A stretch of 64,000 bases of DNA. Origin: Escherichia coli (GTDB lineage: Bacteria > Pseudomonadota > Gammaproteobacteria > Enterobacterales > Enterobacteriaceae). Positions within the stretch are counted from its first letter, which is position 1; each line of letters opens with the position of its first letter. The stretch is taken from assembly GCF_003019035.1 (NCBI RefSeq), contig NZ_CP027447.1. One strand, 5' to 3'. This document shows, one piece after another, positions 1 through 13,315 of this stretch. The translations under genes and the position numbers were made by a program. The notes below the pieces were generated by a model. The model saw only the letters and a list, made by a program, of their open reading frames with translations. It was not told where the DNA came from and did no database searches.

Positions 1-922
1 TCACCGTAACCATTGAACTGAACGGTACATTGGCGGCGGCATCCATCATTGCTTTACAGGCAGCCATCGACAGATTGAGGAAGAAGTGATCGTTACCGGT
101 GATAAATGCCACGACGCGCTGGATATGTTCCTGTGGAAGAGAGCAGGCCAGCAATGCCGGGAGCAGGCGCTTAATCAGCAAACCGGTAGCGGCAGCATTG
201 CGGTTATGAACTTCATCCCCCATATGCAGCGCCTGCGCCATTAATGGCTTGAGTTCCAGCTCGCCGTGTTGTGCGATTGCTGCTTTCATTGCCGGCGCCA
301 GTTCATCGCGCATCCAGGCCAGACGATTGAGAACTTCATCGTTATTGGCGCCAAAACGGAGAACCTTACCCAGACCTTCATTGAAATTGCTAAAAGTACG
401 ATGGCCGTTGGTTTTGTTTTCTACCACCCATAACGGCATCGACGGGCTGATGATGCCTGCCATTGGGCCAACCGCGTGATAATGATGACAAGGGGCAAGG
501 TCGATTTCGCCTGCGTTTATTTGGTTTTCAGCGTCTTGCTGGCTGGTGGCCCAACCTTCGTACAGCATGGCACCAATAATCGCCCCTTTTACCGGACCAC
601 ACATCTCTTCCCAGGCAATCGGCGGGCCAGAGTGCAAAATACGTTTTTGTTCAGCCATTGCTGGAATGGCCTCTTTAGCGAGCATGACATCCACCAGCAC
701 GGGCTGTGCTTCGAGATAACGTGTCATGGCGATTTGGTTGGCATTTTCTACCAGGGGATGACGTAGCAACGATGCCAGATCCAATCCAGCGTCAATATCG
801 CCTTGTGCTGGTGGCTGCCAGTTGAGTGCAATTGCGCTTCCCCCGGCATGTTGAATATTGTCAGCAAAACTGTGTAGTCCCGCGTTCACGACCTTCAAAG
901 GCTGATTAAATAAGGTATTCAT
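1..922 (-). CDS. DUF1116-family protein (YlbE/YahG-like), partial; 3-prime end lies beyond the window start
   Basis: Minus-strand ATG at 920-922 overlaps the FdrA-like stop (ATGA); manual translation runs to the window edge (MNTLFNQPLKVVNAGLHSFADNIQHAGG...). Not in the ORF track because no in-window stop. Family call from memory of the yahEFG/fdrA-ylbEF gene order. Confidence 0.55.
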   Translation of the reverse strand, partial: MNTLFNQPLKVVNAGLHSFADNIQHAGGSAIALNWQPPAQGDIDAGLDLASLLRHPLVENANQIAMTRYLEAQPVLVDVMLAKEAIPAMAEQKRILHSGPPIAWEEMCGPVKGAIIGAMLYEGWATSQQDAENQINAGEIDLAPCHHYHAVGPMAGIISPSMPLWVVENKTNGHRTFSNFNEGLGKVLRFGANNDEVLNRLAWMRDELAPAMKAAIAQHGELELKPLMAQALHMGDEVHNRNAAATGLLIKRLLPALLACSLPQEHIQRVVAFITGNDHFFLNLSMAACKAMMDAAANVPFSSMVTV

Positions 923-2478
923 GCGTTTAGCCCCTTTTTCTGCAACTGAGTCTGTGCAACGGTGCTGGCCCATAACGCCGCCTGTGCATTGCTGCTGGCG
1001 ATGATGACCCCTGCATTTTGTAGTGCGCTTATCTGCTGACTGCGTATTTGCGGATCAGCTTCCGTTCCGCAAACGTGCGCAATCAGCAACGGTGCGTTAT
1101 TCATGTCGATGTGTGAAAGTTGGTCCAGTAATTCGCTGGCAGGCGTCGTGGAAGCGCCATAACCAAGTACCAGGTCGAATAACACGACGGCAGTGTGTGA
1201 GTCGTTGAGTTCGTTGAGCAGACGTTGATTGCGCAGAGTCGGGTCGATCATTGGATGCGGTTTGCCACGGGTGAAATCATCGTCGCCCATATCGATCAAC
1301 GTGTGATCTTCGCTTTGCCAGATATTTGCCAGAGCACGATTACCCGCAACTGGCGTATTGGAGGCTGCGCTGAATCCCTTTTGTTGGCAGATAAGTTGCG
1401 CTTCGTAGCAGAAGGTTCCTCCGGCGAAAACACCGCGTATCGCCTGGCGATGGGCTGGCAGGCGCTGGCAGGCGTTTTGTAACATTGTGAGATCGTCGCA
1501 GGAAATTTCGGTCTCGATAGTCGGAATTGGTTGATCATTCAGTAACGCCACGGCGATATTTGCGGCGCTGGCAAGTGTGGTGGCGGCAGTGATATTGGGA
1601 CGTGCCAGATCATGCGGATTCGCACCGAGGAAATTCACCACCACGGGTTTTCCACAAGCCTCGGCACGCTCCAGAATAGTCCGGGCAACGATCGGTGAAG
1701 GCGGTTTTGAAATAAGCACAATCACGCGAGTTTCATCGTCTTGCGCCAGCGCATCTAAAGCGAAGAGCATCGATATTCCACCAATCTCTTCACTGAGATC
1801 ATGTCCGCCTGTTCCCAACGCCTGAGAAATACCCGCTCCGAGCTGGTCGATTCGGCAAGTCACTTCCTGTAGCCCGGTGCCTGACGCGCCAATAACACCA
1901 ATTGCTCCGCGTTTCACCACATTAGCGAAGCCTAACGGAATGCCGTTAACAATGGCGGTTCCACAGTCAGGTCCCATTACGATGCGCTGACGTTCTCGGG
2001 CAAGCGTTTTGATGGATTTTTCCTGCACGATACTGACGTTATCGCTGAACATCATCACGTTCATTCCGAGGTTTAACGCTTTAATTGCTTCGGCGGCGGC
2101 GTAGTCTCCCGGTACAGAAATGAGTGCCAGGTTGGCTTCGGGCTCGGCTTCCAGTGCCATTTCCAGGCTGACCTTTTCCGGTGATTTAATGCCACTATCC
2201 GTTTCATCATCGGGTTTGCTGGTCAGACGTTGCTGGGCCAGTACCAGTGCTTCATTGCAAATATCTTCTTCACCCATGACTGCAATCACTAAATCATTGG
2301 GACTGGCGTTGATTTCGTTACCCAGACCCGCATCGCGCAATTGTTCGAGATTATTGGGCGTTCCCATGACGACCGAGGCCTGTTGAATACCGGGCAACTT
2401 GCTGATTTGTGCGGAAATCTGCATCAGAGAAACTGAGTCCTGATAAAGATTACTGAAAACTTTATATTTAACTTTCAT
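919..2478 (-). CDS. FdrA/YahF-like protein (succinyl-CoA synthetase alpha-like CoA-binding family), 519 aa
   Basis: ORF track 519 aa; Gly-rich CoA-binding motifs (GVIGASGTG, MGPDCGT); length and neighbours match FdrA/YahF paralogs. Confidence 0.8.
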   Translation of the reverse strand: MKVKYKVFSNLYQDSVSLMQISAQISKLPGIQQASVVMGTPNNLEQLRDAGLGNEINASPNDLVIAVMGEEDICNEALVLAQQRLTSKPDDETDSGIKSPEKVSLEMALEAEPEANLALISVPGDYAAAEAIKALNLGMNVMMFSDNVSIVQEKSIKTLARERQRIVMGPDCGTAIVNGIPLGFANVVKRGAIGVIGASGTGLQEVTCRIDQLGAGISQALGTGGHDLSEEIGGISMLFALDALAQDDETRVIVLISKPPSPIVARTILERAEACGKPVVVNFLGANPHDLARPNITAATTLASAANIAVALLNDQPIPTIETEISCDDLTMLQNACQRLPAHRQAIRGVFAGGTFCYEAQLICQQKGFSAASNTPVAGNRALANIWQSEDHTLIDMGDDDFTRGKPHPMIDPTLRNQRLLNELNDSHTAVVLFDLVLGYGASTTPASELLDQLSHIDMNNAPLLIAHVCGTEADPQIRSQQISALQNAGVIIASSNAQAALWASTVAQTQLQKKGLNA

Positions 2479-2572
2479 GCTGTTACGCCTGTTTCATTCC
2501 GCCCGATAGCAAAATTCGGGCAAAGTATCCCCGTGTAGCCCCATAAACGGGCTACGGGAGAAAAGGTTGAAA

Positions 2573-3433
2573 TCAATTCATGGTGTTCAGGGTTCGAAAG
2601 CCATGCAGCATTCCTGCAAGGCAATCTACTCCTGACGTTGCGCCAAATTGCATGACCTGTTCTGCACAGGATGCGATTGTCATTGCCGATGCGCTCCCAA
2701 CCAGTTGTGCGAGTAACTGGCAAATCGGTTCTGAAAAATGTCCCTGAAGCGCACGCTCCAGATAATGACGACTGATATCCGTGGTGTTGTGCGCATGTTG
2801 ATCAATTGCCTGCTGCAACCGGTATTGATGATCGGCAAGTGGTGCAGGGAGTTGCCATAACCAGAGCGCTGCCAGATAGCCCAACAAATAGTCATCTCCA
2901 TCGGGCGTTAAGCCTTTACCAAAGCCGATCAGTTGTGGCACCTGGCGTTCCAGCGCATCTGGATGCTCCATAATCGCTAATCCCTGGTGCGTGAGACTAT
3001 CCGGCAGGTGCAATGTGCTTTGAACGTTATGTTCCAGACAAAATAAAAGCCGTTGCGATGCCATCGTTGGGTAGTGCTGGAAAACCAAAGGGAATGCCTC
3101 AAGTGTCAGCATTCCCCCCACAAATGGCGACTGCCAGAGCGTTGCGTTATCGAGCGCCACACAAAATCGAGGTGTCCGCAGTAAGCCTGGGGTTAACTGA
3201 ATGGGATCTGAATGGGCAATCTCTCTTCGCCAGTCCCAACATTCAGGTAGCCAGACTCTGGCAGCATCAGGGAGATTCAGATACGTTTGCGCACACAACA
3301 GAGTGATGAATGTTCCCGCGTCTGAATACAGATTTACCGCATGTTTAAAAGCGCTATGCAGACGTAAATCTTGCGTTTCATTCTGCGGGAAAATATATCC
3401 CAACGACGATGCGCAAAGCGTAACCTGTACCAT
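2573..3433 (-). CDS. DUF2877-like protein (YahE/YlbF-like), 286 aa
   Basis: ORF track 286 aa; sits immediately upstream of the FdrA-like gene as yahE does before yahF; GLTPDGDD motif. Family assignment from memory, unverified. Confidence 0.5.
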   Translation of the reverse strand: MVQVTLCASSLGYIFPQNETQDLRLHSAFKHAVNLYSDAGTFITLLCAQTYLNLPDAARVWLPECWDWRREIAHSDPIQLTPGLLRTPRFCVALDNATLWQSPFVGGMLTLEAFPLVFQHYPTMASQRLLFCLEHNVQSTLHLPDSLTHQGLAIMEHPDALERQVPQLIGFGKGLTPDGDDYLLGYLAALWLWQLPAPLADHQYRLQQAIDQHAHNTTDISRHYLERALQGHFSEPICQLLAQLVGSASAMTIASCAEQVMQFGATSGVDCLAGMLHGFRTLNTMN

Positions 3434-3438
3434 CGGCG

Positions 3439-4107
3439 TTAGCCTTCCAGACCTGCAATAATGGCTTTGGAATCAGTAACCCAACCGAAAATGGCACCTT
3501 GTGCTTTGATCATCTCGAGGGCGTATTTCTGGAATTCCGGGAAATAGGAGCCGACACAATCTTCCGGGATAATGCATTCATAGCCACGATCATTTGCTTC
3601 GCGCACGGTGGTGGTTACGCAAACTTCGGTTGTAACACCACAAACTATCAGCGTCTTGATACCGTGGTTTTGCAAAATCAGATGTAAGTCGGTTTGATAA
3701 AACGCGCCTTTGCCAGGCTTATCAATCACCGGTTCGCCTGCCACCGGGTACAGTTCAGGAATGATGTCATGACCTGCTTCACCTCTGACCAGAATGCGTC
3801 CCATCGGTCCTGGTTCACCAATAAAGGTTTTTCCGCCGCGCGTCAGTTTGGCTGGCGGGCAGTCGCTTAAGTCTGCACGATGGCCTTCACGAGTATGAAT
3901 AACCATAATTCCTTTTTGACGTGCGGCTGCCAGCACCTCTGTACATGGTGCGATAGCCGTGCGTACCAGTGAAACATCATTGCCCAGTGCCTCACCGAAG
4001 CCCCCTGCTTCGACAAAGTCACGCTGCATGTCGATCATGACCAGTGCAGTTGTGCGCGGATCAAAAGGTAATTCAAAGGGTTGAGCCTGAAAAATGGATT
4101 GCGTCAT
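3439..4107 (-). CDS. Isochorismatase-family cysteine hydrolase, 222 aa
   Basis: ORF track 222 aa; N-terminal LVMIDMQRDF motif typical of the isochorismatase/CSHase fold; 5-nt gap to the next gene suggests an operon. Confidence 0.75.
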   Translation of the reverse strand: MTQSIFQAQPFELPFDPRTTALVMIDMQRDFVEAGGFGEALGNDVSLVRTAIAPCTEVLAAARQKGIMVIHTREGHRADLSDCPPAKLTRGGKTFIGEPGPMGRILVRGEAGHDIIPELYPVAGEPVIDKPGKGAFYQTDLHLILQNHGIKTLIVCGVTTEVCVTTTVREANDRGYECIIPEDCVGSYFPEFQKYALEMIKAQGAIFGWVTDSKAIIAGLEG

Positions 4108-4363: not shown

Positions 4364-5173
4364 TTACTTTTTAACACCATACTGTGTAAACCATTCCAAC
4401 ATTCGCTGCCAGCCGTCTTTCGCAGACTCGGCATGATAGCTCGGACGATAATCGGCGTTGAACGCATGCCCTGCATCCGGGTAGACGATAATCTCTGCTT
4501 TCGCGTTTGCTGCCCGCAGCGCCTGGCGCATCGTTTCCACGCTCTCTTGCGGAATGCTGTTATCCTGGCCGCCATATAAGCCGAGAACCGGCGCGTTAAG
4601 ATCGGTTGCGATATCAACAGGTTGTTTCGGTGAATTCAGCGACTTATCGCCCGTCAGTTTGCCGTACCACGCCACTGCGGCTTTTAGCTGTGGATTATGC
4701 GCGGCATACAGCCAGGTGATACGTCCACCCCAGCAGAATCCGGTGATCATTAAACGATGAACATCGCCGCCGTTGCGGGAAGCCCAACTGGCGACATGAT
4801 CGAGATCGGCCAGCACCTGCGAGTCAGGCACTTTTGCTACCAGACCGCTAAGCAACGTGGGGATATCGGCAAAATCATTCGGATCGCCTTCGCGGAAGTA
4901 AAGTTCAGGTGCGATAGCCAGATACCCCTCCAGCGCCAGACGGCGACAAATATCGCGGATATGTTCATGCACGCCAAAAATTTCCTGCACTACAATGACC
5001 ACTGGCAGTGGGCCATCGCTTTGCTTTGGTCTGGCATGGTAAGCAGGCATGTTATCCCCTTGTGAAGGGATAGAGGTGAAGCCCGCCACAATCGCGTCGT
5101 CCGGAGTCTGAACGATGGTCGAAGCGAGAGGCGATGCAGCAGGTGCAAATCCAGATTGTTGTGTTGTTGCCAT
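4364..5173 (-). CDS. ysgA: Dienelactone hydrolase family protein
   Basis: ORF track 291 aa begins at an upstream GTG; the internal Met (MATTQQSG...) follows an RBS (GGAGAA) and gives about 269 aa; GFCWGG nucleophile motif. Confidence 0.75.
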   Translation of the reverse strand: MATTQQSGFAPAASPLASTIVQTPDDAIVAGFTSIPSQGDNMPAYHARPKQSDGPLPVVIVVQEIFGVHEHIRDICRRLALEGYLAIAPELYFREGDPNDFADIPTLLSGLVAKVPDSQVLADLDHVASWASRNGGDVHRLMITGFCWGGRITWLYAAHNPQLKAAVAWYGKLTGDKSLNSPKQPVDIATDLNAPVLGLYGGQDNSIPQESVETMRQALRAANAKAEIIVYPDAGHAFNADYRPSYHAESAKDGWQRMLEWFTQYGVKK

Positions 5174-5291
5174 GGTATTCTCCGTACCCTTATAAAAATG
5201 TTGCGCAATGTTAACTATAGTCAGCATGCAACAAATCACATTGCCTGAATCGGCTCATCTTTTATGCAGTCCTGCAGAATGAAGAGTGATT

Positions 5292-5361
5292 TATGTGATT
5301 TGCATCACTTTTGGCGGGTAAATTTATGCAACGCATTTTCGTCATGGTGATGAGTATCACG
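5292..5361 (+). promoter_or_regulatory. udp promoter region with two CRP-like sites (TGTGA-N6-TCAC)
   Basis: tgtgatttgcatcact near 5294-5309 and gtgatgagtatcac near 5347-5360, upstream of udp; udp is a known CRP/CytR-regulated gene. Confidence 0.5.
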
Positions 5362-5434
5362 AAAAAATGTTAAACCCTTCGGTAAAGTGTCTTTTTGCTT
5401 CTTCTGACTAAACCGATTCACAGAGGAGTTGTAT

Positions 5435-6199
5435 ATGTCCAAGTCTGATGTTTTTCATCTCGGCCTCACTAAAAACGATTTACAAGGGGCTACGCTTGCC
5501 ATCGTCCCTGGCGACCCGGATCGTGTGGAAAAGATCGCCGCGCTGATGGATAAGCCGGTTAAGCTGGCATCTCACCGCGAATTCACCACCTGGCGTGCAG
5601 AGCTGGATGGTAAACCTGTTATCGTCTGCTCTACCGGTATCGGCGGCCCGTCTACCTCTATTGCTGTTGAAGAGCTGGCACAGCTGGGCATTCGCACCTT
5701 CCTGCGTATCGGTACAACGGGCGCTATTCAGCCGCATATTAATGTGGGTGATGTCCTGGTTACCACGGCGTCTGTTCGTCTGGATGGCGCGAGCCTGCAC
5801 TTCGCACCGCTGGAATTCCCGGCTGTCGCTGATTTCGAATGTACGACTGCGCTGGTTGAAGCTGCGAAATCCATTGGCGCGACGACTCACGTTGGTGTGA
5901 CGGCTTCTTCTGATACCTTCTACCCGGGTCAGGAACGTTACGATACTTACTCTGGTCGCGTAGTCCGTCACTTTAAAGGTTCTATGGAAGAGTGGCAGGC
6001 GATGGGCGTAATGAACTATGAAATGGAATCTGCAACCCTGCTGACCATGTGTGCAAGTCAGGGCCTGCGTGCCGGTATGGTAGCGGGGGTTATCGTTAAC
6101 CGCACCCAGCAAGAGATCCCGAATGCTGAGACGATGAAACAAACCGAAAGCCATGCGGTGAAAATCGTGGTGGAAGCGGCGCGTCGTCTGCTGAAATAA
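5435..6199 (+). CDS. udp: Uridine phosphorylase
   Basis: Protein [35 protein letters not shown]... matches E. coli Udp from memory; RBS GAGGAG upstream; ORF track start (5429) is an upstream TTG. Confidence 0.95.
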
Positions 6200-6203
6200 A
6201 AAA

Positions 6204-6225
6204 CGCTCCCCAACGTCGGGGAGCG
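6204..6225. terminator. GC-rich stem-loop between convergent udp and tctA; putative bidirectional terminator
   Basis: cgctcccc/ggggagcg inverted repeat with an A-run on the plus side (U-run for the minus-strand transcript). Confidence 0.55.
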
Positions 6226-6232
6226 ATATCAG

Positions 6233-7723
6233 TTATTGACGCCGTAAACGCATTATTTTGCGGATTATTGGCGTCAGTAGCGTAAAGGCTGCCAGAGTCA
6301 GCAATGCCAGAGTGATCGGTCGGGTATACAGAAAGTCGAGTGACCCACCAGAAAGCGACAGCGCACGGCGAAAATTACTTTCCGCCATTGGCCCCATAAT
6401 CAATGCCAGCACTACGGGTGACGCCGGATACCCCCCTTTTTGCATGAAATAGCCCACCACGCCTGCAATCAGCATAATGCCAACATCAAAAAGGCTATTG
6501 TTCAACGCATAAGTCCCGACCACACAAAGTGCGAGGATCATCGGTGTGAGAATATTGCCGGGAATTTTCACCACATTACCGATGACTTTCAAAGAGAGCA
6601 GTCCAAGAACTAGTAGCATGAAGTAACAGAAGATCATGCCGACAAACAGTGTATAAACCATATCGCCGTGGTCGGTAAACATCAGCGGGCCTGGTTGCAT
6701 TCCCTGTAACGTTAACGCGCCCAGCATGATGGCAGTTACCGCATCGCCAGGGATCCCCAGCGTCAGCATAGGTAACAATGCGCCACCGGTGCAGCCATTC
6801 GCGCCTGCCTCACAGGAGGCCACAGCTTTAATTTCACCCTTACCAAAGTTTTCTGGTGTCTTACTGAAACGACGAGTTTCGTTATAGGCAACAAAAGCTG
6901 CAATATCCGCCCCCGCACCGGGGATCATGCCGATAAAAACCCCTAATCCTGATGAGCGCAAAATGGTTAATGCAATGCGGCGTAGTGTCTGCCAGGGCAG
7001 TAACAGACTGCCGATAGCCACCTTCGCCCCCTGACGAATTTGCTGGTTTTGCTCCATAGAGCGGAATGCTTCTGAAGCAGCAAATAAACCAATCATCACC
7101 GGGATAAATGGCACATTCATCAGCTCCACAAATCCACCTGTAAACCGTGGAAAACCGCCCATTGGATCAAGGCCTATCGTTGCGATCAGCAATCCGCCAA
7201 CCCCGGCAATCAGCCCTTTAATCAGTGACTCACCGGAAATACTGGCAATAATGCTCAGTCCGAAGGTTGCCAGGGCGAAGGACTCCGAGGCACTAAATTT
7301 CAGCGCCCAACTGGCAAGTACCGGAGAGAGAAACATCAGCACGATAATGCTGAGCGTTCCGCCACTAAAGGAAGAGAACGTGGCGGCACTCAATGCCAGC
7401 CCTGCTTTTCCCTGTTTCGTCAGCTCATAACCATCAATAGCGGTGGCTGCGGCGGCAGGCGTTCCGGGAATTTTGAGCAAAATTGCGGTGATAGAACCAC
7501 CGTAGACGCCACCAAAAAAGACGCCGCAAATCATCAACAAGCCAGAAACAGGCTCCATGCCGTAGGTGAAAGGCAGCAAAATCGCCACACCCATGGTCGC
7601 TGTCAGACCAGGCAAAGCGCCAATCACAATACCCAGCATCACCCCAAAAGTGGCAAACAGCAGCGCCTGAGGATTATTGAGTAATGTCGAAAAACCCTGA
7701 GTTAAAAGTTCACTTTCAAACAT
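6233..7723 (-). CDS. Tripartite tricarboxylate transporter large permease, TctA family, 496 aa
   Basis: ORF track 496 aa; highly hydrophobic, Gly/Ala-rich polytopic membrane protein of TctA size and composition. Confidence 0.8.
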   Translation of the reverse strand: MFESELLTQGFSTLLNNPQALLFATFGVMLGIVIGALPGLTATMGVAILLPFTYGMEPVSGLLMICGVFFGGVYGGSITAILLKIPGTPAAAATAIDGYELTKQGKAGLALSAATFSSFSGGTLSIIVLMFLSPVLASWALKFSASESFALATFGLSIIASISGESLIKGLIAGVGGLLIATIGLDPMGGFPRFTGGFVELMNVPFIPVMIGLFAASEAFRSMEQNQQIRQGAKVAIGSLLLPWQTLRRIALTILRSSGLGVFIGMIPGAGADIAAFVAYNETRRFSKTPENFGKGEIKAVASCEAGANGCTGGALLPMLTLGIPGDAVTAIMLGALTLQGMQPGPLMFTDHGDMVYTLFVGMIFCYFMLLVLGLLSLKVIGNVVKIPGNILTPMILALCVVGTYALNNSLFDVGIMLIAGVVGYFMQKGGYPASPVVLALIMGPMAESNFRRALSLSGGSLDFLYTRPITLALLTLAAFTLLTPIIRKIMRLRRQ

Positions 7724-7735
7724 TGCTGGCCCCTG

Positions 7736-8242
7736 TTATTCGAAAAATGTGCCGACAGGCAATGGCACCTGTAACGCTTCGACAAACAGCAACCAGAGGA
7801 TTGCCGTTAACAGCAGCGCAATACCCGGTGTGAGTACCCATCGCCTGTAGCCCATCAACGTCATAATGACGATGAGGAAAACAGGAGTAGTAATGAGATA
7901 ACCGCAGTAGCCCATCGTCACAATATAAAACGCGGTTGCCGCAATTCCTGTTGCCGTTTTCCTGAATGCCGGTTTTTCCTGTGCGTTGGCGCAAGAGGCT
8001 GGTTTTGCCTGCAAAAGATCGCGTATCACCAGCAAGACAGCGAGCACAATCAGGGCACAGGCATAGAAGGTAGGGAAGGCACTTGCACCGGGATCCGTTT
8101 CAATGGCAGTTGCTGGAAAATCAGCGGCATTAATCATCACCGCGCCAGCAACCACACAAAGTAACAGCGCCACCACCATCGTTGATGAAAGGCGCTTGCG
8201 GTGCGGTACGGCGAGTTGAGCAACAGACTGTTTTGTGTTCAT
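7736..8242 (-). CDS. Tripartite tricarboxylate transporter small permease, TctB family, about 168 aa
   Basis: Small hydrophobic protein between the TctC-like and TctA-like genes; start taken at the ATG one codon inside the track start (TTG). Confidence 0.65.
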   Translation of the reverse strand: MNTKQSVAQLAVPHRKRLSSTMVVALLLCVVAGAVMINAADFPATAIETDPGASAFPTFYACALIVLAVLLVIRDLLQAKPASCANAQEKPAFRKTATGIAATAFYIVTMGYCGYLITTPVFLIVIMTLMGYRRWVLTPGIALLLTAILWLLFVEALQVPLPVGTFFE

Positions 8243-8258
8243 CAACCGTACCTCAGGT

Positions 8259-9233
8259 TTATTTTTTCAGGCCCAGGCGAGTCAGCAACTCGTCAAAGTA
8301 CTTTTCCTGTTCGCTGATTTGGGTCTGGAAGCTGGCAGCGTCAAGCCATGCATAGTTGAGATTCAACTTTTGCAGTGCATCCTGGAATGCAGGCTCTTCA
8401 GCCGTCTCTTTTGCTGCCTTTGCCAGAACATCCACCACATCCTGCGGCGTTTTTTGCGACACAATCAGGCCGCGCCAGGTGCCGATGGAGAGATCAACGC
8501 CTTTCTCTTTTAACGTCGGGACGTCAGGCATGGTTTTCATTCGCTCATCCGCCATCACTACCAGTGTCTTCAGCTTGCCGCCTTTCACATGGTTGATAAC
8601 TTCACCTGGGCTTACGGAAACCGCTTCAATATGCCCGCCTAACAGACCTGTAATGGCAGGAGCTGCGCCGTCATACGGGACATGGGAAAACTTTGCGCTC
8701 GTTTTGTCTTCCAGTGCAGCTGCCGCCAGATGCCAGATAGCTCCGGTGCCTGAGTTACCAATGCGTACTTTTCCGGGATTCGCTTTGGCGTAAGTCATAA
8801 ATTCTTCATAGCTATTCCACGGCGCATCGGCACGGACGGTGATAGCCGCCGGATCCGCATTCAGACGGGCAATGGGTTTAAAGTCGCTGGTTTTAAAACG
8901 CACCATTCCGAGGCTGGGAAGGGTGGTCAGTTCAACCGTGCCTAAACCAATTTTGTAACCGTTAGGGCGGGCAGCGGCGATTTCACTCAGGCCGATAGCG
9001 CCGCCACCGCCAGGTTTATTGATAACTCCGATGCTGACGGGCAAATGGTTTTTGGCGGCATCAGCAAAGGCACGGGCCACCAGGTCCGTACCGCCTCCGG
9101 CAGCGTAGGGAACGATTAGCTCGATCTGTTTGGTTGGGTAGGAGGCAGCCTGTACAGGCGCAGTGCTGAGGGCAGCGCCTGCAATAAGTACTATCGCAGC
9201 TATTTTTTTCGGTAAGGTAAGATGTTTTATCAT
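8259..9233 (-). CDS. Periplasmic substrate-binding protein, TctC/Bug family, 324 aa
   Basis: Signal peptide (MIKHLTLPKKIAAIVLIAGAALSTAPVQAAS); size and position upstream of tctB/tctA; RBS AAGGA. Confidence 0.8.
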   Translation of the reverse strand: MIKHLTLPKKIAAIVLIAGAALSTAPVQAASYPTKQIELIVPYAAGGGTDLVARAFADAAKNHLPVSIGVINKPGGGGAIGLSEIAAARPNGYKIGLGTVELTTLPSLGMVRFKTSDFKPIARLNADPAAITVRADAPWNSYEEFMTYAKANPGKVRIGNSGTGAIWHLAAAALEDKTSAKFSHVPYDGAAPAITGLLGGHIEAVSVSPGEVINHVKGGKLKTLVVMADERMKTMPDVPTLKEKGVDLSIGTWRGLIVSQKTPQDVVDVLAKAAKETAEEPAFQDALQKLNLNYAWLDAASFQTQISEQEKYFDELLTRLGLKK

Positions 9234-9256
9234 AGTTTTATATCCTTATTTATCAG

Positions 9257-9886
9257 TTATTTGCTATTTAAATTATTCCATGCATTCATAAACAGCACTG
9301 CATTTTCATAGACCTGCTCTGGCGTCATGCCGGGGCGATATAGCGCAGAACCGAGGCCAAAACCGTTTGCGCCGTGGCTCAGATAACGCGCCATTGTTTC
9401 CGGTGTGATACCGCCAACCGGTAACATCGGAACGGATTGCGGAATAACCGCACGCCAGGCTTTGGTGACTTCTGGCGTAATTTGTTCGGCCGGGAACAGC
9501 TTGATGGCATTGGCGCCATGTTCAATGGCAGCAAAAGCTTCGGTGGGCGTAGCGACGCCTGGCGCGCAATACATACCCAGCGCACGGGCGCGACGGATCA
9601 CCGCAGTATCGCAATGCGGCATCACGATAATCTGGCCCCCAGCCTCTTTAACCGCAACCACCTGCTCTACCGAAAGCACAGTTCCGGCTCCGACCAGGCA
9701 GTCCTTAGGCAGGGCGTCGCGCAGTAAACTGATACTTTGCAACGCCTCCGGCGAGTTCATAGGAATCTCAATCAGGCGGAATCCGGCGGCGTACAGTTTT
9801 TCACCGATGGCGACAATCTCATCCGGTTTCACGCCGCGTAAAATGGCGACTAACCCGGTTTTTTGCAAAAGCGTCTTAAATGGCAT
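9257..9886 (-). CDS. 2-dehydro-3-deoxy-6-phosphogalactonate aldolase-like (DgoA/KDPGal aldolase family), about 209 aa
   Basis: Core LVAILRG...EIPMNSP...GAGTVL...GVATPTEAF...FPA...VGGI resembles E. coli DgoA from memory; start set at MPFKTLL (ATG 9884-9886, RBS AGGGAA), overlapping the kinase stop by 11 nt. Confidence 0.8.
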   Translation of the reverse strand: MPFKTLLQKTGLVAILRGVKPDEIVAIGEKLYAAGFRLIEIPMNSPEALQSISLLRDALPKDCLVGAGTVLSVEQVVAVKEAGGQIIVMPHCDTAVIRRARALGMYCAPGVATPTEAFAAIEHGANAIKLFPAEQITPEVTKAWRAVIPQSVPMLPVGGITPETMARYLSHGANGFGLGSALYRPGMTPEQVYENAVLFMNAWNNLNSK

Positions 9887-10880
9887 GGGTATATTCCCTG
9901 GCGTTGGTGGACAGTAACCCGGCAGCGTGGGCGATTCGCCATAATCCCTGTTCAGTGGCATTAGGAATGGCGTGTATCTGTCTGTCGGGAAAAACGTGGC
10001 TGAATGCTTGTGAATAGCGGCTGTTCAGATTTGCGCTACCGATTAAGGCGATCGGTGTTGTGGCGGGTAAATCACGTAGCAAACTGGATGCCAGACCACA
10101 TAATTCATGGCCTATCAGTAATCCGGAAAGGTAATCCCCCTGCGAGGACGACGTAAGATTACTGGTCAGCAGGCGCGAACGGGTCGAAAACAGCGTCGAT
10201 AATAATCCGGTCTGATGATGCTCTTGTGCTGCTGTCAGCCCGTGGGTGAAGGCATCCCAGTGCGGTTCATCTCCAGGATGCATGGTGGCACCGAGAATCG
10301 AATGGCGGGATAAAACATCAAATAACTCGCCCGTCATAAAGGTTCGGAAATCGGTAATGGTGTTGTTTTCAACTACTGCCCATTTCGCATGTGTGCCGGG
10401 TAAGCCTATCAGCACTGGCATACCCTGATGGATCGCGTTTTGCAGGGCCGGTTCCATCGAGATAGCACCGAAGATTTGTGTCTCTTCGCCACGCATCACT
10501 TCGGGCATTTCACCTTCTTTAATCACGCCAGGAATGATGTGCAGCATTGTCTGCTGCTGGTGGATAACAGGCGTCAACTGCTTCGCCAGACCCTCGAGAG
10601 TGACCGGGCAAGGTAAATAAGCTGCTGGTTGCCACCCTTGCGCACTGCCGAGCATGCCGCAAGCCAGTACCGGGCATGGGGTTTGTGCCAGCCAGTCGCC
10701 GCAGACACGTAAAAACGTATCGTGGAAAGCGTCCTCACGTGTTGCTGCCTGGGAGGGTAATTTCATGATCCCCCAGGGGAATTCACGTTTTTCTTGTGGA
10801 TTTGGTGATTCGCCAAAACGCCATGCCCGAAGCGATGACGTTCCCCAGTCCAGGGCAATAAATGAGGGTGCTCCCGGCAT
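9876..10880 (-). CDS. 2-dehydro-3-deoxygalactonokinase-like (DgoK family), 334 aa
   Basis: N-terminal IALDWGTSSLRAW and internal VMRGEETQIFG / GTHAKW motifs parallel E. coli DgoK; RBS AAGGAAA. Confidence 0.8.
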   Translation of the reverse strand: MPGAPSFIALDWGTSSLRAWRFGESPNPQEKREFPWGIMKLPSQAATREDAFHDTFLRVCGDWLAQTPCPVLACGMLGSAQGWQPAAYLPCPVTLEGLAKQLTPVIHQQQTMLHIIPGVIKEGEMPEVMRGEETQIFGAISMEPALQNAIHQGMPVLIGLPGTHAKWAVVENNTITDFRTFMTGELFDVLSRHSILGATMHPGDEPHWDAFTHGLTAAQEHHQTGLLSTLFSTRSRLLTSNLTSSSQGDYLSGLLIGHELCGLASSLLRDLPATTPIALIGSANLNSRYSQAFSHVFPDRQIHAIPNATEQGLWRIAHAAGLLSTNAREYTHAI

Positions 10881-10903
10881 TAGTCGTTTCCTTTAATCAT
10901 GGT

Positions 10904-11671
10904 TTATTTATCTTTGCGGACGTGCTTACCCCAGCCCAGTTCAGCGGATATCTCTTCTGCACAGGATTTGACGTAAGGTGCCAGTTCTTCCAGACGCGCC
11001 AGCGACATATACGTGGTGGTACTGGCGACAGAAATAGCCGCCACAATTTCATCCCGGGCGTTGTAAACCGGCGCTGCAACGCAACGGATAGTCGGCTCGT
11101 TCTCTTCCAGATCAAAAGCAAAACCACTGGCGGCATAACGACGCATGTTCTGAATAAATGCGCCCAGTTTTGTTTCATCACCACAGGTCTTAAACAGCGT
11201 GCGCCACTCTTCTTCTGTTCGGTTGAGGATCAATGCCTTGCCGATGCCGGTGATTGCCAGTGGCATGCGATGGCCTGGGCGTGAGCGCATTTCCAGCCCG
11301 CGCTGACTGTTGATCTTCTCCAGATACAGCACTTCGTCGCCTTCAACGATCCCCAGATGCACGGTGTCCAGGGTGTAACGGGCAAGGCGTTGCAAAACGG
11401 GCTGGGCAATTTCGTACAGCGAGGTGCTTTCCAGTGCTCTGGCACCGAATTCGATCAGTTTGGCACCCAGTTGGTAGCCCTGCGTTGGGACATGGCGCAG
11501 GTAGCGTTGTTCCACCAGAACGGTGACTAAACGATGGGTTGTGCTCCGGGTCGTGCCGGTGAACTCGCCGATACTTTTTAGGTCATGGCAGCCGTTATAA
11601 ACAGCATTAAGAACCGCCAGTCCACGTAATAACGTTTGTGCGCCTGCGGTGGTTGAAGAGGTTTCTGCCAT
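10904..11671 (-). CDS. IclR-family transcriptional regulator, about 255 aa
   Basis: N-terminal HTH region (LLRGLAVLNAV...) and C-terminal effector domain typical of IclR; start set at MAETSS (RBS AGGAGA) rather than the longer track ORF. Confidence 0.8.
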   Translation of the reverse strand: MAETSSTTAGAQTLLRGLAVLNAVYNGCHDLKSIGEFTGTTRSTTHRLVTVLVEQRYLRHVPTQGYQLGAKLIEFGARALESTSLYEIAQPVLQRLARYTLDTVHLGIVEGDEVLYLEKINSQRGLEMRSRPGHRMPLAITGIGKALILNRTEEEWRTLFKTCGDETKLGAFIQNMRRYAASGFAFDLEENEPTIRCVAAPVYNARDEIVAAISVASTTTYMSLARLEELAPYVKSCAEEISAELGWGKHVRKDK

Positions 11672-11887
11672 ACGTTTCTCCTGATGATATTGCTGAAGTG
11701 TTCCACATAATGACGTGGGGAAAAGGTGATATATCCCACAATATAAACTCCATCTCATATTGTGGGATAAAATAATGAAAATTAACGATCGTTTTGCGTA
11801 GCGCCTCGCAGGAAACTTCTTTCAAACTGGACGTTTGTACAGCACAATTCTATTTTGTGCGGGTAAGTTGTTGCGTCAGGAGGCGTT

Positions 11888-13315
11888 GTGGATTTCTCAA
11901 TCATGGTTTACGCAGTTATTGCATTGGTGGGTGTGGCAATTGGCTGGCTGTTTGCCAGTTATCAACATGCGCAGCAAAAAGCCGAGCAATTAGCTGAACG
12001 TGAAGAGATGGTCGCGGAGTTAAGCGCGGCAAAACAACAAATTACCCAAAGCGAGCACTGGCGCGCAGAGTGTGAATTGCTCAATAACGAAGTGCGCAGC
12101 CTGCAAAGTATTAACACCTCGCTGGAGGCCGATCTGCGTGAAGTGACCACGCGGATGGAAGCCGCACAGCAACACGCTGACGATAAAATTCGCCAGATGA
12201 TCAACAGCGAACAGCGCCTCAGTGAGCAATTTGAAAACCTTGCCAACCGTATTTTTGAACACAGTAATCGTCGGGTTGATGAGCAAAATCGCCAGAGTCT
12301 GAACAGTCTTTTGTCGCCGTTGCGTGAACAACTGGATGGTTTCCGCCGTCAGGTCCAGGACAGCTTTGGTAAAGAAGCCCAAGAACGTCATACCCTGACT
12401 CACGAAATCCGCAACCTCCAGCAACTCAACGCCCAGATGGCCCAGGAAGCGATCAACCTGACGCGTGCGCTGAAAGGCGACAATAAAACCCAGGGCAACT
12501 GGGGCGAGGTAGTATTGACGCGGGTGCTGGAGGCTTCCGGTCTGCGTGAAGGGTATGAATATGAAACCCAGGTCAGCATCGAAAATGACGCCCGCTCGCG
12601 GATGCAGCCGGATGTCATCGTGCGGTTGCCGCAGGGAAAAGATGTGGTGATCGACGCCAAAATGACGCTGGTCGCCTATGAACGCTATTTCAACGCCGAA
12701 GATGACTACTCCCGCGAAAGCGCGCTACAGGAACATATCGCGTCGGTACGTAACCATATCCGTTTGCTGGGACGCAAAGATTATCAACAGCTGCCGGGGC
12801 TGCGAACTCTGGATTACGTGCTGATGTTTATTCCCGTTGAACCCGCTTTTTTACTGGCGCTTGACCGTCAGCCGGAGCTGATCACCGAAGCGTTGAAAAA
12901 CAATATCATGCTGGTTAGCCCGACTACGCTGCTGGTGGCGCTGCGCACTATCGCCAACCTGTGGCGTTATGAGCATCAAAGCCGCAACGCCCAGCAAATC
13001 GCCGATCGTGCCAGCAAGCTGTACGACAAGATGCGTTTGTTTGTCGATGACATGTCCGCGATTGGTCAAAGTCTCGACAAAGCGCAGGATAACTATCGCC
13101 AGGCAATGAAAAAACTCTCTTCAGGTCGCGGAAATGTGCTGGCGCAGGCAGAAGCGTTTCGCGGTTTAGGGGTAGAAATTAAACGCGAGATTAATCCGGA
13201 TTTGGCTGAACAGGCGGTGAGCCAGGATGAAGAGTATCGACTTCGGTCGGTTCCGGAGCAGCCGAATGATGAAGCTTATCAACGCGATGATGAATATAAT
13301 CAGCAGTCGCGCTAG
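11888..13315 (+). CDS. rmuC: DNA recombination protein RmuC
   Basis: 475 aa, GTG start; N-terminal TM segment followed by long coiled-coil region; matches E. coli RmuC from memory. Confidence 0.9.
   Translation: MDFSIMVYAVIALVGVAIGWLFASYQHAQQKAEQLAEREEMVAELSAAKQQITQSEHWRAECELLNNEVRSLQSINTSLEADLREVTTRMEAAQQHADDKIRQMINSEQRLSEQFENLANRIFEHSNRRVDEQNRQSLNSLLSPLREQLDGFRRQVQDSFGKEAQERHTLTHEIRNLQQLNAQMAQEAINLTRALKGDNKTQGNWGEVVLTRVLEASGLREGYEYETQVSIENDARSRMQPDVIVRLPQGKDVVIDAKMTLVAYERYFNAEDDYSRESALQEHIASVRNHIRLLGRKDYQQLPGLRTLDYVLMFIPVEPAFLLALDRQPELITEALKNNIMLVSPTTLLVALRTIANLWRYEHQSRNAQQIADRASKLYDKMRLFVDDMSAIGQSLDKAQDNYRQAMKKLSSGRGNVLAQAEAFRGLGVEIKREINPDLAEQAVSQDEEYRLRSVPEQPNDEAYQRDDEYNQQSR

What the first reader, a model, noticed from the sequence alone, without database searches (positions are those of the whole stretch)
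6233..11671. Accessory 5.5-kb operon between udp and rmuC: IclR regulator, DgoK-like kinase, DgoA-like aldolase and a TctCBA transporter
In the K-12 gene order as I remember it, udp is followed directly by rmuC. Here six co-directional, tightly packed minus-strand genes sit between them, with kinase and aldolase overlapping by 11 nt. The kinase and aldolase resemble the D-galactonate pathway enzymes DgoK and DgoA, but there is no dehydratase (DgoD) and no MFS permease (DgoT). Instead there is a three-component TctC/TctB/TctA transporter, a family that is rare in E. coli. This suggests direct uptake of an already 2-keto-3-deoxy sugar acid (KDGal- or KDG-like) followed by phosphorylation and aldol cleavage to pyruvate plus a triose phosphate. 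The substrate and physiological role are unknown to me. No integrase, tRNA or direct repeats flank the segment.
Basis: partly seen in the sequence, partly recalled or inferred. Interest (0 to 1): 0.6.

Follow-up and report, generated by a model that had tools for sequence, protein, structure and literature searches.

The report
Accessory sugar-acid uptake and breakdown operon
About a quarter of E. coli strains, including CFT073, ST131 and E. coli B but not K-12, carry six extra genes between udp and rmuC that most likely import a six-carbon keto-deoxy sugar acid and split it into pyruvate and glyceraldehyde-3-phosphate; the true substrate has not been tested.

Summary
Window 6233-11671 holds six intact, co-directional minus-strand genes: an IclR regulator, a DGOK-family kinase, a KDPGal-type aldolase, and TctC, TctB and TctA. 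They lie between udp and rmuC.

K-12 has udp next to rmuC. The block is present at this site in 1452 of 5426 complete E. coli genomes. It has no tRNA, integrase or flanking repeats, and its GC content is the same as its surroundings.

The cassette is orthologous as a unit to cassettes in Phytobacter (same udp-adjacent site), Brenneria, Enterobacter, Rhodoferax and Azospirillum. None of the loci whose binding protein is at least 45% identical has a DgoD-like dehydratase within 10 kb. A kinase and aldolase accompany the transporter in most of them.

Candidate pocket residues of the binding protein are nearly invariant across very different gene contexts, including Firmicute loci with KdgK/Eda, KduI or KdgT. 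It is not proven.

The main rival is D-galactonate uptake that relies on the core DgoD. I found no experimental paper on the E. coli locus.

Most proteobacterial versions also carry an ortholog of the Sphingomonas DEH reductase A1-R. This fits poorly with the KDPGal-type aldolase and remains unexplained.

The parts
6194..11791 (.). Strain-specific segment (5.6 kb) that replaces about 50 bp of the K-12-type udp-rmuC spacer
   Evidence: Filled and empty sites were compared by eye. It is present in 1452 of 5426 complete E. coli genomes at this site. GC is 0.521 against 0.51 for the window.
6204..6225 (-). GC-rich hairpin plus T-run: terminator of the operon, also placed to terminate udp from the other side
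   Evidence: Terminator scan found 9 pairs, 7 of them GC, followed by TTTTTTATTT. It replaces the K-12 udp terminator.
6233..7723 (-). TctA-type large membrane subunit (496 aa)
   Evidence: PF01970 E 1e-151, full length. It is 90% identical to the Phytobacter protein and 71% to the Rhodoferax protein. pN/pS is 0.01.
7736..8242 (-). TctB-type small membrane subunit (168 aa)
   Evidence: PF07331 E 4e-21; RefSeq coordinates.
8259..9233 (-). TctC/Bug periplasmic solute-binding protein (324 aa) with an N-terminal signal peptide ending VQA/AS
   Evidence: PF03401 E 2e-54. The nearest structures are 4X9T (Polaromonas, ligand unknown, E 3e-99) and 25HK (Vibrio alginate TTT-C, E 1e-63). Candidate pocket positions are nearly invariant in homologs of at least 45% identity.
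9257..9886 (-). Class I aldolase of the KDPGal (DgoA) type (209 aa)
   Evidence: NF006600 scores 321 bits against a cut-off of 207. It is 46% identical to core DgoA. It aligns to 2V81. The Schiff-base Lys, the catalytic Glu and Val at the Eda-T161/DgoA-V154 position are conserved.
9876..10880 (-). DGOK-family (2-keto-3-deoxy-galactonokinase-like) kinase (334 aa); overlaps the aldolase start by 11 nt
   Evidence: PF05035 E 6e-89. It is 35% identical to core DgoK. It hits structures 3R1X and 3T69.
10904..11671 (-). IclR-family regulator (255 aa), first gene of the operon
   Evidence: Best NCBIfam hits are BhcR, KdgR and PcaR, all below their equivalog cut-offs. PDB hits are 1MKM IclR and 1YSP KdgR. 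It is 49% identical to the regulator of the Rhodoferax cassette.
11732..11769 (.). Perfect 13-nt inverted repeat TATCCCACAATAT-N12-ATATTGTGGGATA upstream of iclR: candidate operator (inferred)
   Evidence: the repeat finder. The 11-mer occurs only here at 0 mismatches in the 64-kb window. A related TCCCACA palindrome lies upstream of the Brenneria regulator. Binding was not tested.
11725..11740 (-). TGTGGGATATATCACC: a CRP-like half-palindrome overlapping one operator arm (inferred from the sequence only)
   Evidence: Read and compared with the textbook CRP consensus TGTGA-N6-TCACA. Not tested.

Best explanation
The block is a self-contained, IclR-controlled catabolic operon for an acidic six-carbon sugar derivative. 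The periplasmic TctC protein captures the ligand and hands it to the TctB/TctA membrane pair for ion-gradient-driven uptake. The DGOK-family kinase then phosphorylates it at C6. The DgoA-type class I aldolase cleaves the product into pyruvate and D-glyceraldehyde-3-phosphate. The IclR protein is transcribed first in the operon. It probably represses transcription at the inverted repeat upstream of its own gene until the ligand or its phosphate appears. The most likely ligand is a 2-keto-3-deoxy-hexonate taken up as such. KDGal is favoured because the kinase and aldolase are of the galactonate type, and the C4 epimer KDG may also be bound. On this reading the cell needs no dehydratase and does not depend on induction of the core dgo operon. 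Shown: gene content, family membership, conservation, distribution and purifying selection. Inferred: ligand identity, direction of regulation and operator.
For: Family tests are. The aldolase has the catalytic Lys and Glu and the Val that marks DgoA rather than Eda. This Val is found in every aldolase paired with a DGOK kinase, whereas Thr is found in the Bacillales aldolases paired with PfkB kinases. The cassette is orthologous gene for gene to cassettes in Phytobacter, Brenneria, Enterobacter, Rhodoferax and Azospirillum. A tblastn search with E. coli DgoD found no homolog within about 10 kb in any locus whose binding protein is at least 45% identical. The only hit was Vibrio sonorensis at 41% identity, where the binding protein differs at several otherwise invariant candidate pocket positions. 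Candidate pocket positions are nearly invariant across loci carrying DGOK plus Val-aldolase, PfkB KdgK-like kinase plus Thr-aldolase, KduI, or an orphan TctC next to the KDG permease KdgT. Because the pocket is the same in Firmicute loci with KdgK/Eda, KduI or KdgT, a shared 2-keto-3-deoxy-hexonate-like ligand fits better than D-galactonate. The regulator's nearest named relatives include KdgR. All six genes are intact with pN/pS of 0.01-0.47 in four diverged strains.
Against: There is no binding, transport or enzyme data for any member of this clade, and the closest structure (4X9T) has no ligand (PMC5812351). The candidate pocket positions were transferred from a docking-based study of a 40%-identical protein (PMC13390454), so they are approximate. 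E. coli has a core DgoD, so the lack of a dehydratase in the island does not by itself exclude D-galactonate. About 10 proteobacterial versions carry an SMP-30-type lactonase-like gene, a family that has been proposed as a galactonolactonase in dgo loci (PMC5507952); this would imply an unlinked dehydratase in those genomes. Sixteen or seventeen carry an ortholog of the DEH reductase A1-R, which points to an aldehyde precursor and, by stereochemistry, to KDG rather than KDGal. An environmental source of free KDGal is not obvious.
Confidence: 0.5

Rival explanations
1. The transporter is a high-affinity D-galactonate uptake system. The imported D-galactonate is dehydrated by the core DgoD, which D-galactonate induces through DgoR. 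The island's kinase and aldolase simply duplicate DgoK and DgoA.
For: A similar IclR-dgoK-TTT cluster in Salinivirga was predicted to import D-galactonate (PMC5507952). The kinase and aldolase are galactonate-pathway types. About 10 proteobacterial cassettes carry an SMP-30 lactonase-like gene, and most carry an SDR. Together these could be galactose dehydrogenase plus galactonolactonase of a De Ley-Doudoroff cluster whose dehydratase lies elsewhere. E. coli has a core dgoD.
Against: No dehydratase is linked in any of the roughly 25 loci whose binding protein is at least 56% identical, across alpha-, beta- and gamma-proteobacteria. This is unusual for dgo clusters. The same pocket is kept in Firmicute loci with KDG-type enzymes, KduI or KdgT, where D-galactonate makes no sense. 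The one dehydratase-linked relative has a different pocket. The SDR is 55-71% identical to a characterised DEH reductase, not to a known galactose dehydrogenase. A second kinase, aldolase and regulator would be redundant in E. coli.
Confidence: 0.25
2. The transporter imports a 4-deoxy-5-keto-uronate released from lyase-degraded polysaccharides: DEH from alginate, or DKI from pectin or glycosaminoglycans. The E. coli version has lost the dedicated reductase and relies on host enzymes.
For: Sixteen or seventeen related proteobacterial cassettes include an A1-R ortholog; A1-R is the DEH reductase of PDB 3AFM and 4TKL. Enterobacter has an Fe-ADH, and Bacillales have a 2-hydroxyacid dehydrogenase, in the equivalent place. 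The Vibrio sp. C42 relative (25HK) binds unsaturated alginate products (PMC13390454). Lachnospiraceae loci carry KduI.
Against: E. coli, Phytobacter and Brenneria cassettes have no reductase. Stereochemistry worked out by hand shows that DEH gives KDG (4S,5R) and DKI gives L-KDGal (4S,5S). Neither matches a KDPGal-type (4R) aldolase. The Vibrio protein differs in the NSGTGAIWH loop.
Confidence: 0.1
3. It is a citrate or other tricarboxylate transporter like Salmonella TctCBA, and the adjacent sugar-acid genes are unrelated to it.
For: The family name and the Pfam membership.
Against: The six genes are packed with 12-23 nt gaps or an overlap, and they are conserved as a unit across phyla. There is no TctD/TctE two-component system in the block. 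TTT binding proteins are known to bind many non-tricarboxylate acids (PMC5812351).
Confidence: 0.03

Closest known systems
E. coli dgoRKADT (D-galactonate operon)
   Same: It has a kinase of the DGOK family and a class I aldolase with the same catalytic Lys and Glu and the same Val at the stereo-determining position. The end products are pyruvate plus glyceraldehyde-3-phosphate.
   Different: Identity is only 35% (kinase) and 46% (aldolase). The island has no DgoD dehydratase. It has a TTT transporter instead of the MFS permease DgoT, and an IclR-type instead of a GntR-type regulator.
Salmonella TctCBA citrate transporter and the Bug/TctC family
   Same: The three-component architecture is the same: TctC binding protein, TctB and TctA.
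   Different: There is no TctDE two-component regulator. The transporter is embedded in a sugar-acid kinase/aldolase operon. The binding protein's best structural match in the family is an orphan (4X9T), with E 3e-99 against E 9e-48 for BugD.
Vibrio sp. C42 alginate-locus TTT (TTT-C, PDB 25HK; PMC13390454)
   Same: It is the second-closest solved binding protein (E 1e-63). It is also linked to a keto-deoxy sugar-acid kinase/aldolase route. Many contact residues are shared: G48, T49, D50, P128, T252, R254.
   Different: The NSGTGAIWH loop is replaced by STAAPNFY. That locus has alginate lyases, DehR, KdgK and Eda. Its reported ligand is unsaturated oligosaccharides.
Predicted GalR(IclR)-dgoK-TTT D-galactonate locus of Salinivirga fredricksonii HL-109 (PMC5507952)
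   Same: It has the same kinds of genes, and a TTT transporter is linked to dgoK under an IclR regulator.
   Different: It is a prediction only. I could not test orthology to the E. coli proteins. Its proposed ligand is D-galactonate, not KDGal.
KdgR/KdgT/KdgK/Eda system for 2-keto-3-deoxygluconate
   Same: The logic is the same: take up a ready-made keto-deoxy acid, phosphorylate it and cleave it, under an IclR-family repressor. Relatives of the binding protein sit next to KdgT, KdgK-like and Eda-like genes in Firmicutes.
   Different: The transporter family, kinase fold and predicted aldolase stereochemistry all differ. The regulator scores below the KdgR cut-off (129 against 275 bits).
Sphingomonas sp. 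A1 DEH reductase A1-R pathway
   Same: Orthologs of A1-R (55-71% identity) are part of most proteobacterial versions of the cassette.
   Different: The E. coli cassette has no such gene.

Membership tests
Tripartite tricarboxylate transporter (TTT) | TctA-type large permease | tested here: met
   PF01970 E 1e-151 over residues 21-439
Tripartite tricarboxylate transporter (TTT) | TctB-type small membrane subunit encoded next to TctA | tested here: met
   PF07331 E 4e-21; 12 nt from tctA
Tripartite tricarboxylate transporter (TTT) | TctC/Bug periplasmic binding protein with an export signal | tested here: met
   PF03401 E 2e-54. The N-terminus is hydrophobic and ends in VQA/AS, read from the translation.
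Tripartite tricarboxylate transporter (TTT) | Binding-protein-dependent secondary uptake of a carboxylate | not testable with these tools
   Needs transport assays
DGOK (2-keto-3-deoxy-galactonokinase) family | Full-length match to the family profile | tested here: met
   PF05035 E 6e-89, positions 1-281 of 281. The DWGTS motif aligns with the Klebsiella kinase 3R1X.
DGOK (2-keto-3-deoxy-galactonokinase) family | ATP-dependent phosphorylation of KDGal | not testable with these tools
   No NCBIfam model reached E <= 0.001 for this protein. It is 35% identical to E. coli DgoK.
KDPGal aldolase (DgoA subfamily of class I KDPG/KHG aldolases) | Score above the curated subfamily cut-off | tested here: met
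   NF006600 scores 321 bits against a cut-off of 207. The Eda models are all below their cut-offs.
KDPGal aldolase (DgoA subfamily of class I KDPG/KHG aldolases) | Schiff-base Lys, catalytic Glu, and Val (not Thr) at the position equivalent to Eda T161 / DgoA V154 | tested here: met
   Alignment. The role of this residue is from my recollection of Walters et al. 2008 and was not re-checked.
KDPGal aldolase (DgoA subfamily of class I KDPG/KHG aldolases) | Cleavage of KDPGal but not KDPG | not testable with these tools
   Needs enzyme assays
IclR family regulators | N-terminal HTH plus C-terminal IclR effector domain | tested here: met
   Full-length matches to IclR-family models (E 6e-42 to 7e-21) and to the 1MKM and 1YSP structures. 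Orthologs carry PF09339 plus PF01614.
KdgR / BhcR / IclR / AllR equivalogs | Score above the curated equivalog cut-off | tested here: not met
   BhcR 144 bits against a cut-off of 350, KdgR 129 against 275, IclR 96 against 380, AllR 75 against 406
De Ley-Doudoroff dgo operon (dgoRKADT type) | Linked D-galactonate dehydratase DgoD | tested here: not met
   tblastn with E. coli DgoD found no hit in the window or in related cassettes, except Vibrio sonorensis L048
De Ley-Doudoroff dgo operon (dgoRKADT type) | MFS permease DgoT and GntR-type DgoR | tested here: not met
   No DgoT or DgoR homolog in the block; gene list
Integrase-mediated genomic island | Adjacent tRNA, integrase gene, flanking direct repeats, deviating composition | tested here: not met
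   No tRNA, no junction-spanning repeats, no integrase among the ORFs, GC 0.521 against 0.51

The most novel reading that the evidence does not exclude
The cassette defines a widespread, previously uncharacterised class of TTT transporters dedicated to free 2-keto-3-deoxy-hexonates (KDGal and KDG). These are metabolic intermediates usually thought of as intracellular. If so, ExPEC-type and B-lineage E. coli could scavenge keto-deoxy sugar acids leaked by other gut or environmental microbes without inducing the galactonate or hexuronate regulons. In the proteobacterial versions the A1-R-type reductase would link the same transporter to an unrecognised route from an aldehyde precursor.
Probability: 0.35. 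Interest if true: 0.6.

Novelty: new member of a known kind. Interest (0 to 1): 0.45.

Why it matters
TTT transporters are poorly understood and few have a known ligand, so a tractable E. coli example would be useful. The operon is already present in CFT073, ST131, APEC strains and the laboratory E. coli B lineage, and it is absent from K-12, which gives a ready-made gain/loss pair. The operon is a variable metabolic trait enriched in well-known extraintestinal pathogenic lineages, so its substrate could bear on niche use in the gut or urinary tract. The comparative data also expose a conserved cassette in many Proteobacteria and Firmicutes whose chemistry is not settled: a DEH-reductase ortholog is paired with a KDPGal-type aldolase.

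Tried and rejected
**Literature.** They found no study of the E. coli locus. The only trace was a tctA entry in an EPEC RNA-seq table (PMC4464170). The BL21 model paper and the B-versus-K-12 omics paper do not mention the locus. Two papers I wanted (Geddes & Oresnik 2012; Bouvier 2019) are not held. The GapMind paper has no relevant text.

**Dehydratase candidates.** I checked ORFs of 380-400 and 590-600 aa next to related cassettes as possible DgoD or IlvD-type dehydratases. By eye they looked like binding proteins, a TPP enzyme, a fucose-isomerase-like protein or spurious high-GC ORFs; I did not run family searches on them.

**DKI hypothesis.** I first thought reduction of pectin-derived DKI could give D-KDGal. 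Working through the stereochemistry shows it gives L-KDGal, so I dropped the idea.

**A1-R context.** I looked for the genomic context of Sphingomonas A1-R itself. No contig is held. The closest homolog (83% identical) stands alone, while a 72%-identical one lies in the cassette.

**Operator.** The operator motif is not conserved verbatim in other genera.

**Promoter.** The consensus promoter scan found nothing convincing upstream of iclR on the minus strand.

Full report
**What is there.**
The ORF list and the RefSeq annotation of a genome identical to the window, E. coli SCU-301, agree on six minus-strand genes between udp (5435-6199, +) and rmuC (11888-13315, +):
- IclR regulator, 10904-11671
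- kinase, 9876-10880
- aldolase, 9257-9886
- TctC, 8259-9233
- TctB, 7736-8242
- TctA, 6233-7723

The kinase stop and the aldolase start overlap by 11 nt. The other gaps are 12-23 nt, so this is one transcription unit with the regulator first. A strong hairpin plus T-run at 6204-6225 follows tctA.

**Family tests.**
- TctA: PF01970, E 1e-151.
- TctB: PF07331, E 4e-21.
- TctC: PF03401, E 2e-54.
- Kinase: PF05035 (DGOK), E 6e-89.
- Aldolase: 321 bits on NF006600 (KDPGal aldolase), above the cut-off of 207, and below the cut-off on every Eda model.
- Regulator: matches only IclR-family models, none above an equivalog cut-off. Its nearest structures are an IclR protein and the KdgR effector domain.

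**Accessory status and history.**
- K-12 MG1655 and ATCC 8739 have udp next to rmuC.
- The filled and empty sites differ over window 6194-11791, which replaces about 50 bp including the udp terminator.
- The block is present, at this site, in 1452 of 5426 complete E. coli genomes. Carriers include CFT073, O25b:H4-ST131, APEC O2 strains and a derivative of E. coli B.
- There is no tRNA, no Rfam element, no junction-spanning repeat and no integrase. GC equals that of the surroundings.
- Phytobacter massiliensis has the same cassette next to udp, with 55-90% protein identity.
- Strain HS-02 carries a decayed remnant of the kinase-regulator end.
- The polymorphism is therefore old, and at least some absences are losses.
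- In four diverged strains all six genes are intact with pN/pS of 0.01-0.47, so the operon is under purifying selection.

**Comparison with the core pathway.**
The island aldolase is 46% identical to core DgoA, and the kinase is 35% identical to core DgoK. The aldolase keeps the Schiff-base lysine, the catalytic glutamate and a valine at the position where Eda has Thr161 and DgoA has Val154. That this residue marks KDPGal rather than KDPG stereochemistry is from my memory of Walters et al. 2008. The block contains no DgoD, DgoT or DgoR homolog.

**Relatives elsewhere.**
I searched with the binding protein. I read gene neighbourhoods from Pfam-annotated contigs. I also analysed up to 10 kb on either side of the binding-protein gene in 78 loci from a scan of one genome per species.
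- Loci whose binding protein is at least 56% identical come from alpha-, beta- and gamma-proteobacteria. Nearly all carry IclR, DGOK, aldolase and TctCBA in the same order.
- A tblastn search with E. coli DgoD found no homolog within about 10 kb in any locus of at least 45% identity.
- The only DgoD hit was in Vibrio sonorensis, at 41% binding-protein identity.
- Larger neighbouring ORFs that might have been dehydratases did not look like dehydratases on inspection; I ran no family searches on them.

In Bacillales the same transporter (62-67% identical binding protein) sits with a PfkB KdgK-like kinase, a Thr-type aldolase and a GhrB-like 2-hydroxyacid dehydrogenase. In Lachnospiraceae it sits with a PfkB kinase, KduI and one aldolase of each type. 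In Paenibacillus an orphan TctC lies between a sensor-like AraC protein and the KDG permease KdgT.

**The binding pocket.**
I took the residues reported to contact ligand in the Vibrio TTT-C study (PMC13390454) and added the neighbouring conserved loops. These candidate pocket positions are almost invariant in every locus of at least 45% identity, whatever the gene context. They are T49, D50, R54, E101, N125, the NSGTGAIWH loop, H201, S208, E211, T252, W253 and R254. They differ in the Vibrio alginate protein and in the dehydratase-linked Vibrio sonorensis protein. These positions come from a docking-based study of a 40%-identical protein, so they are approximate.

The simplest reading is one ligand class for the whole clade. 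That class must be compatible with KdgK/Eda, KduI and KdgT on one side and with DgoK/DgoA-type enzymes on the other, with no dehydratase. This describes a 2-keto-3-deoxy-hexonate; KDG and KDGal are C4 epimers.

**The argument for E. coli in particular.**
By my recollection of the DgoR literature, the core dgo operon is induced by D-galactonate, not by KDGal. A cell that imports KDGal would therefore need its own kinase, aldolase and regulator, and that is exactly what the island supplies.

**What speaks against it.**
- No member of the clade has a known ligand. The closest structure, 4X9T, is apo (PMC5812351).
- Leyn et al. predicted D-galactonate for a similar IclR-dgoK-TTT cluster (PMC5507952). 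They also proposed an SMP-30-family (COG3386) lactonase as the galactonolactonase in Halomonas dgo loci.
- About 10 proteobacterial cassettes carry an SMP-30/regucalcin-like gene. This would imply an unlinked dehydratase in those genomes.
- E. coli has a core DgoD, so D-galactonate uptake remains a live rival.

**An unexplained finding.**
Sixteen or seventeen of the proteobacterial cassettes include an SDR that is 55-71% identical over its full length to Sphingomonas A1-R and A1-R'. These are the characterised reductases that convert the alginate product DEH to KDG. This SDR family is small, and I found it in the cassette again when I started from the SDR side.

Working the stereochemistry by hand:
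- DEH gives KDG (4S,5R).
- The pectin or glycosaminoglycan product DKI would give L-KDGal (4S,5S).
- D-KDGal (4R,5R) cannot arise from lyase products.

A DEH-reductase ortholog paired with a Val-type (KDPGal-like) aldolase therefore does not fit any known route. Either the reductase has another substrate in these cassettes, or the single-residue rule for aldolase stereochemistry fails here, or the cassette serves two substrates. E. coli, Phytobacter and Brenneria lack the reductase. Enterobacter has an Fe-ADH and a second DGOK gene instead.

**Regulation (inferred only).**
- A perfect 13-nt inverted repeat with a 12-nt spacer lies 61-98 nt upstream of the iclR start. At 0 mismatches its 11-mer core occurs only here in the window.
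- It overlaps a CRP-like TGTGG-N6-TCACC.
- A related TCCCACA palindrome lies upstream of the Brenneria regulator, but the motif is not conserved verbatim in other genera.

**Literature and verdict.**
The locus is real, intact, conserved and annotated by homology only. I file it as a new, uncharacterised member of a known kind: a TTT-linked sugar-acid catabolic operon. The best-supported mechanism is direct uptake and cleavage of a 2-keto-3-deoxy-hexonate. D-galactonate is the main rival. Interest is moderate. The substrate question is directly testable in standard strains, and the reductase/aldolase conflict in the wider family may hide new chemistry.

Noticed in passing
window 1-4107 and upstream in NZ_CP051751.1 (L096 1331-9518): A second accessory block lies between metE and ysgA. 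It has eight genes: a LysR regulator, a cytosine-permease-like transporter, an allophanate-hydrolase-related protein, carbamate kinase, DUF1116, FdrA, DUF2877 and a cysteine hydrolase. It is absent from K-12, ATCC 8739 and HS-02, where metE abuts ysgA. It looks like an uncharacterised nitrogen-heterocycle or carbamate pathway.
   Followed up: no
L090 about 5000-6420 (E. coli HS-02, NZ_CP172818.1): A decayed remnant of the kinase-IclR end of the island lies at the same site. It is about 80% identical and full of stop codons, and udp is truncated. This shows loss by decay in at least one lineage.
   Followed up: partly
window 6233-11671, compared with L091, L092 and L093: Synonymous divergence among four strains is very uneven. 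It is 0.06-0.09 in tctA, tctC and the aldolase, but 0.005-0.007 in the kinase and iclR. This suggests a recombination mosaic inside the island.
   Followed up: no
L003 6512-7288, L095 9001-9777 and 15 other loci: Orthologs of the Sphingomonas DEH reductase A1-R (55-71% identity) are an integral part of the proteobacterial IclR-DGOK-aldolase-TctCBA cassette. The aldolase there is the Val (KDPGal-like) type. DEH reduction gives KDG, so the pairing is stereochemically unexplained.
   Followed up: partly
L035, L038, L039 (Paenibacillus), around 7300-12000: An orphan TctC (46-48% identical) sits between a 778-aa membrane sensor-like AraC-type protein and the KDG permease KdgT, with no TctA or TctB. 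The binding protein may act there as a sensor partner rather than a transport component.
   Followed up: no
L005 5079-7258 (Enterobacter hormaechei): The Enterobacter version of the cassette has a divergent pair upstream, an Fe-dependent alcohol dehydrogenase plus a second DGOK-family kinase. A second IclR gene lies downstream.
   Followed up: no
window 6194-6199: Because the island junction falls at the end of udp, island-carrying strains encode a Udp with one extra C-terminal residue (…RRLLK) compared with the K-12-type …RRLL.
   Followed up: no
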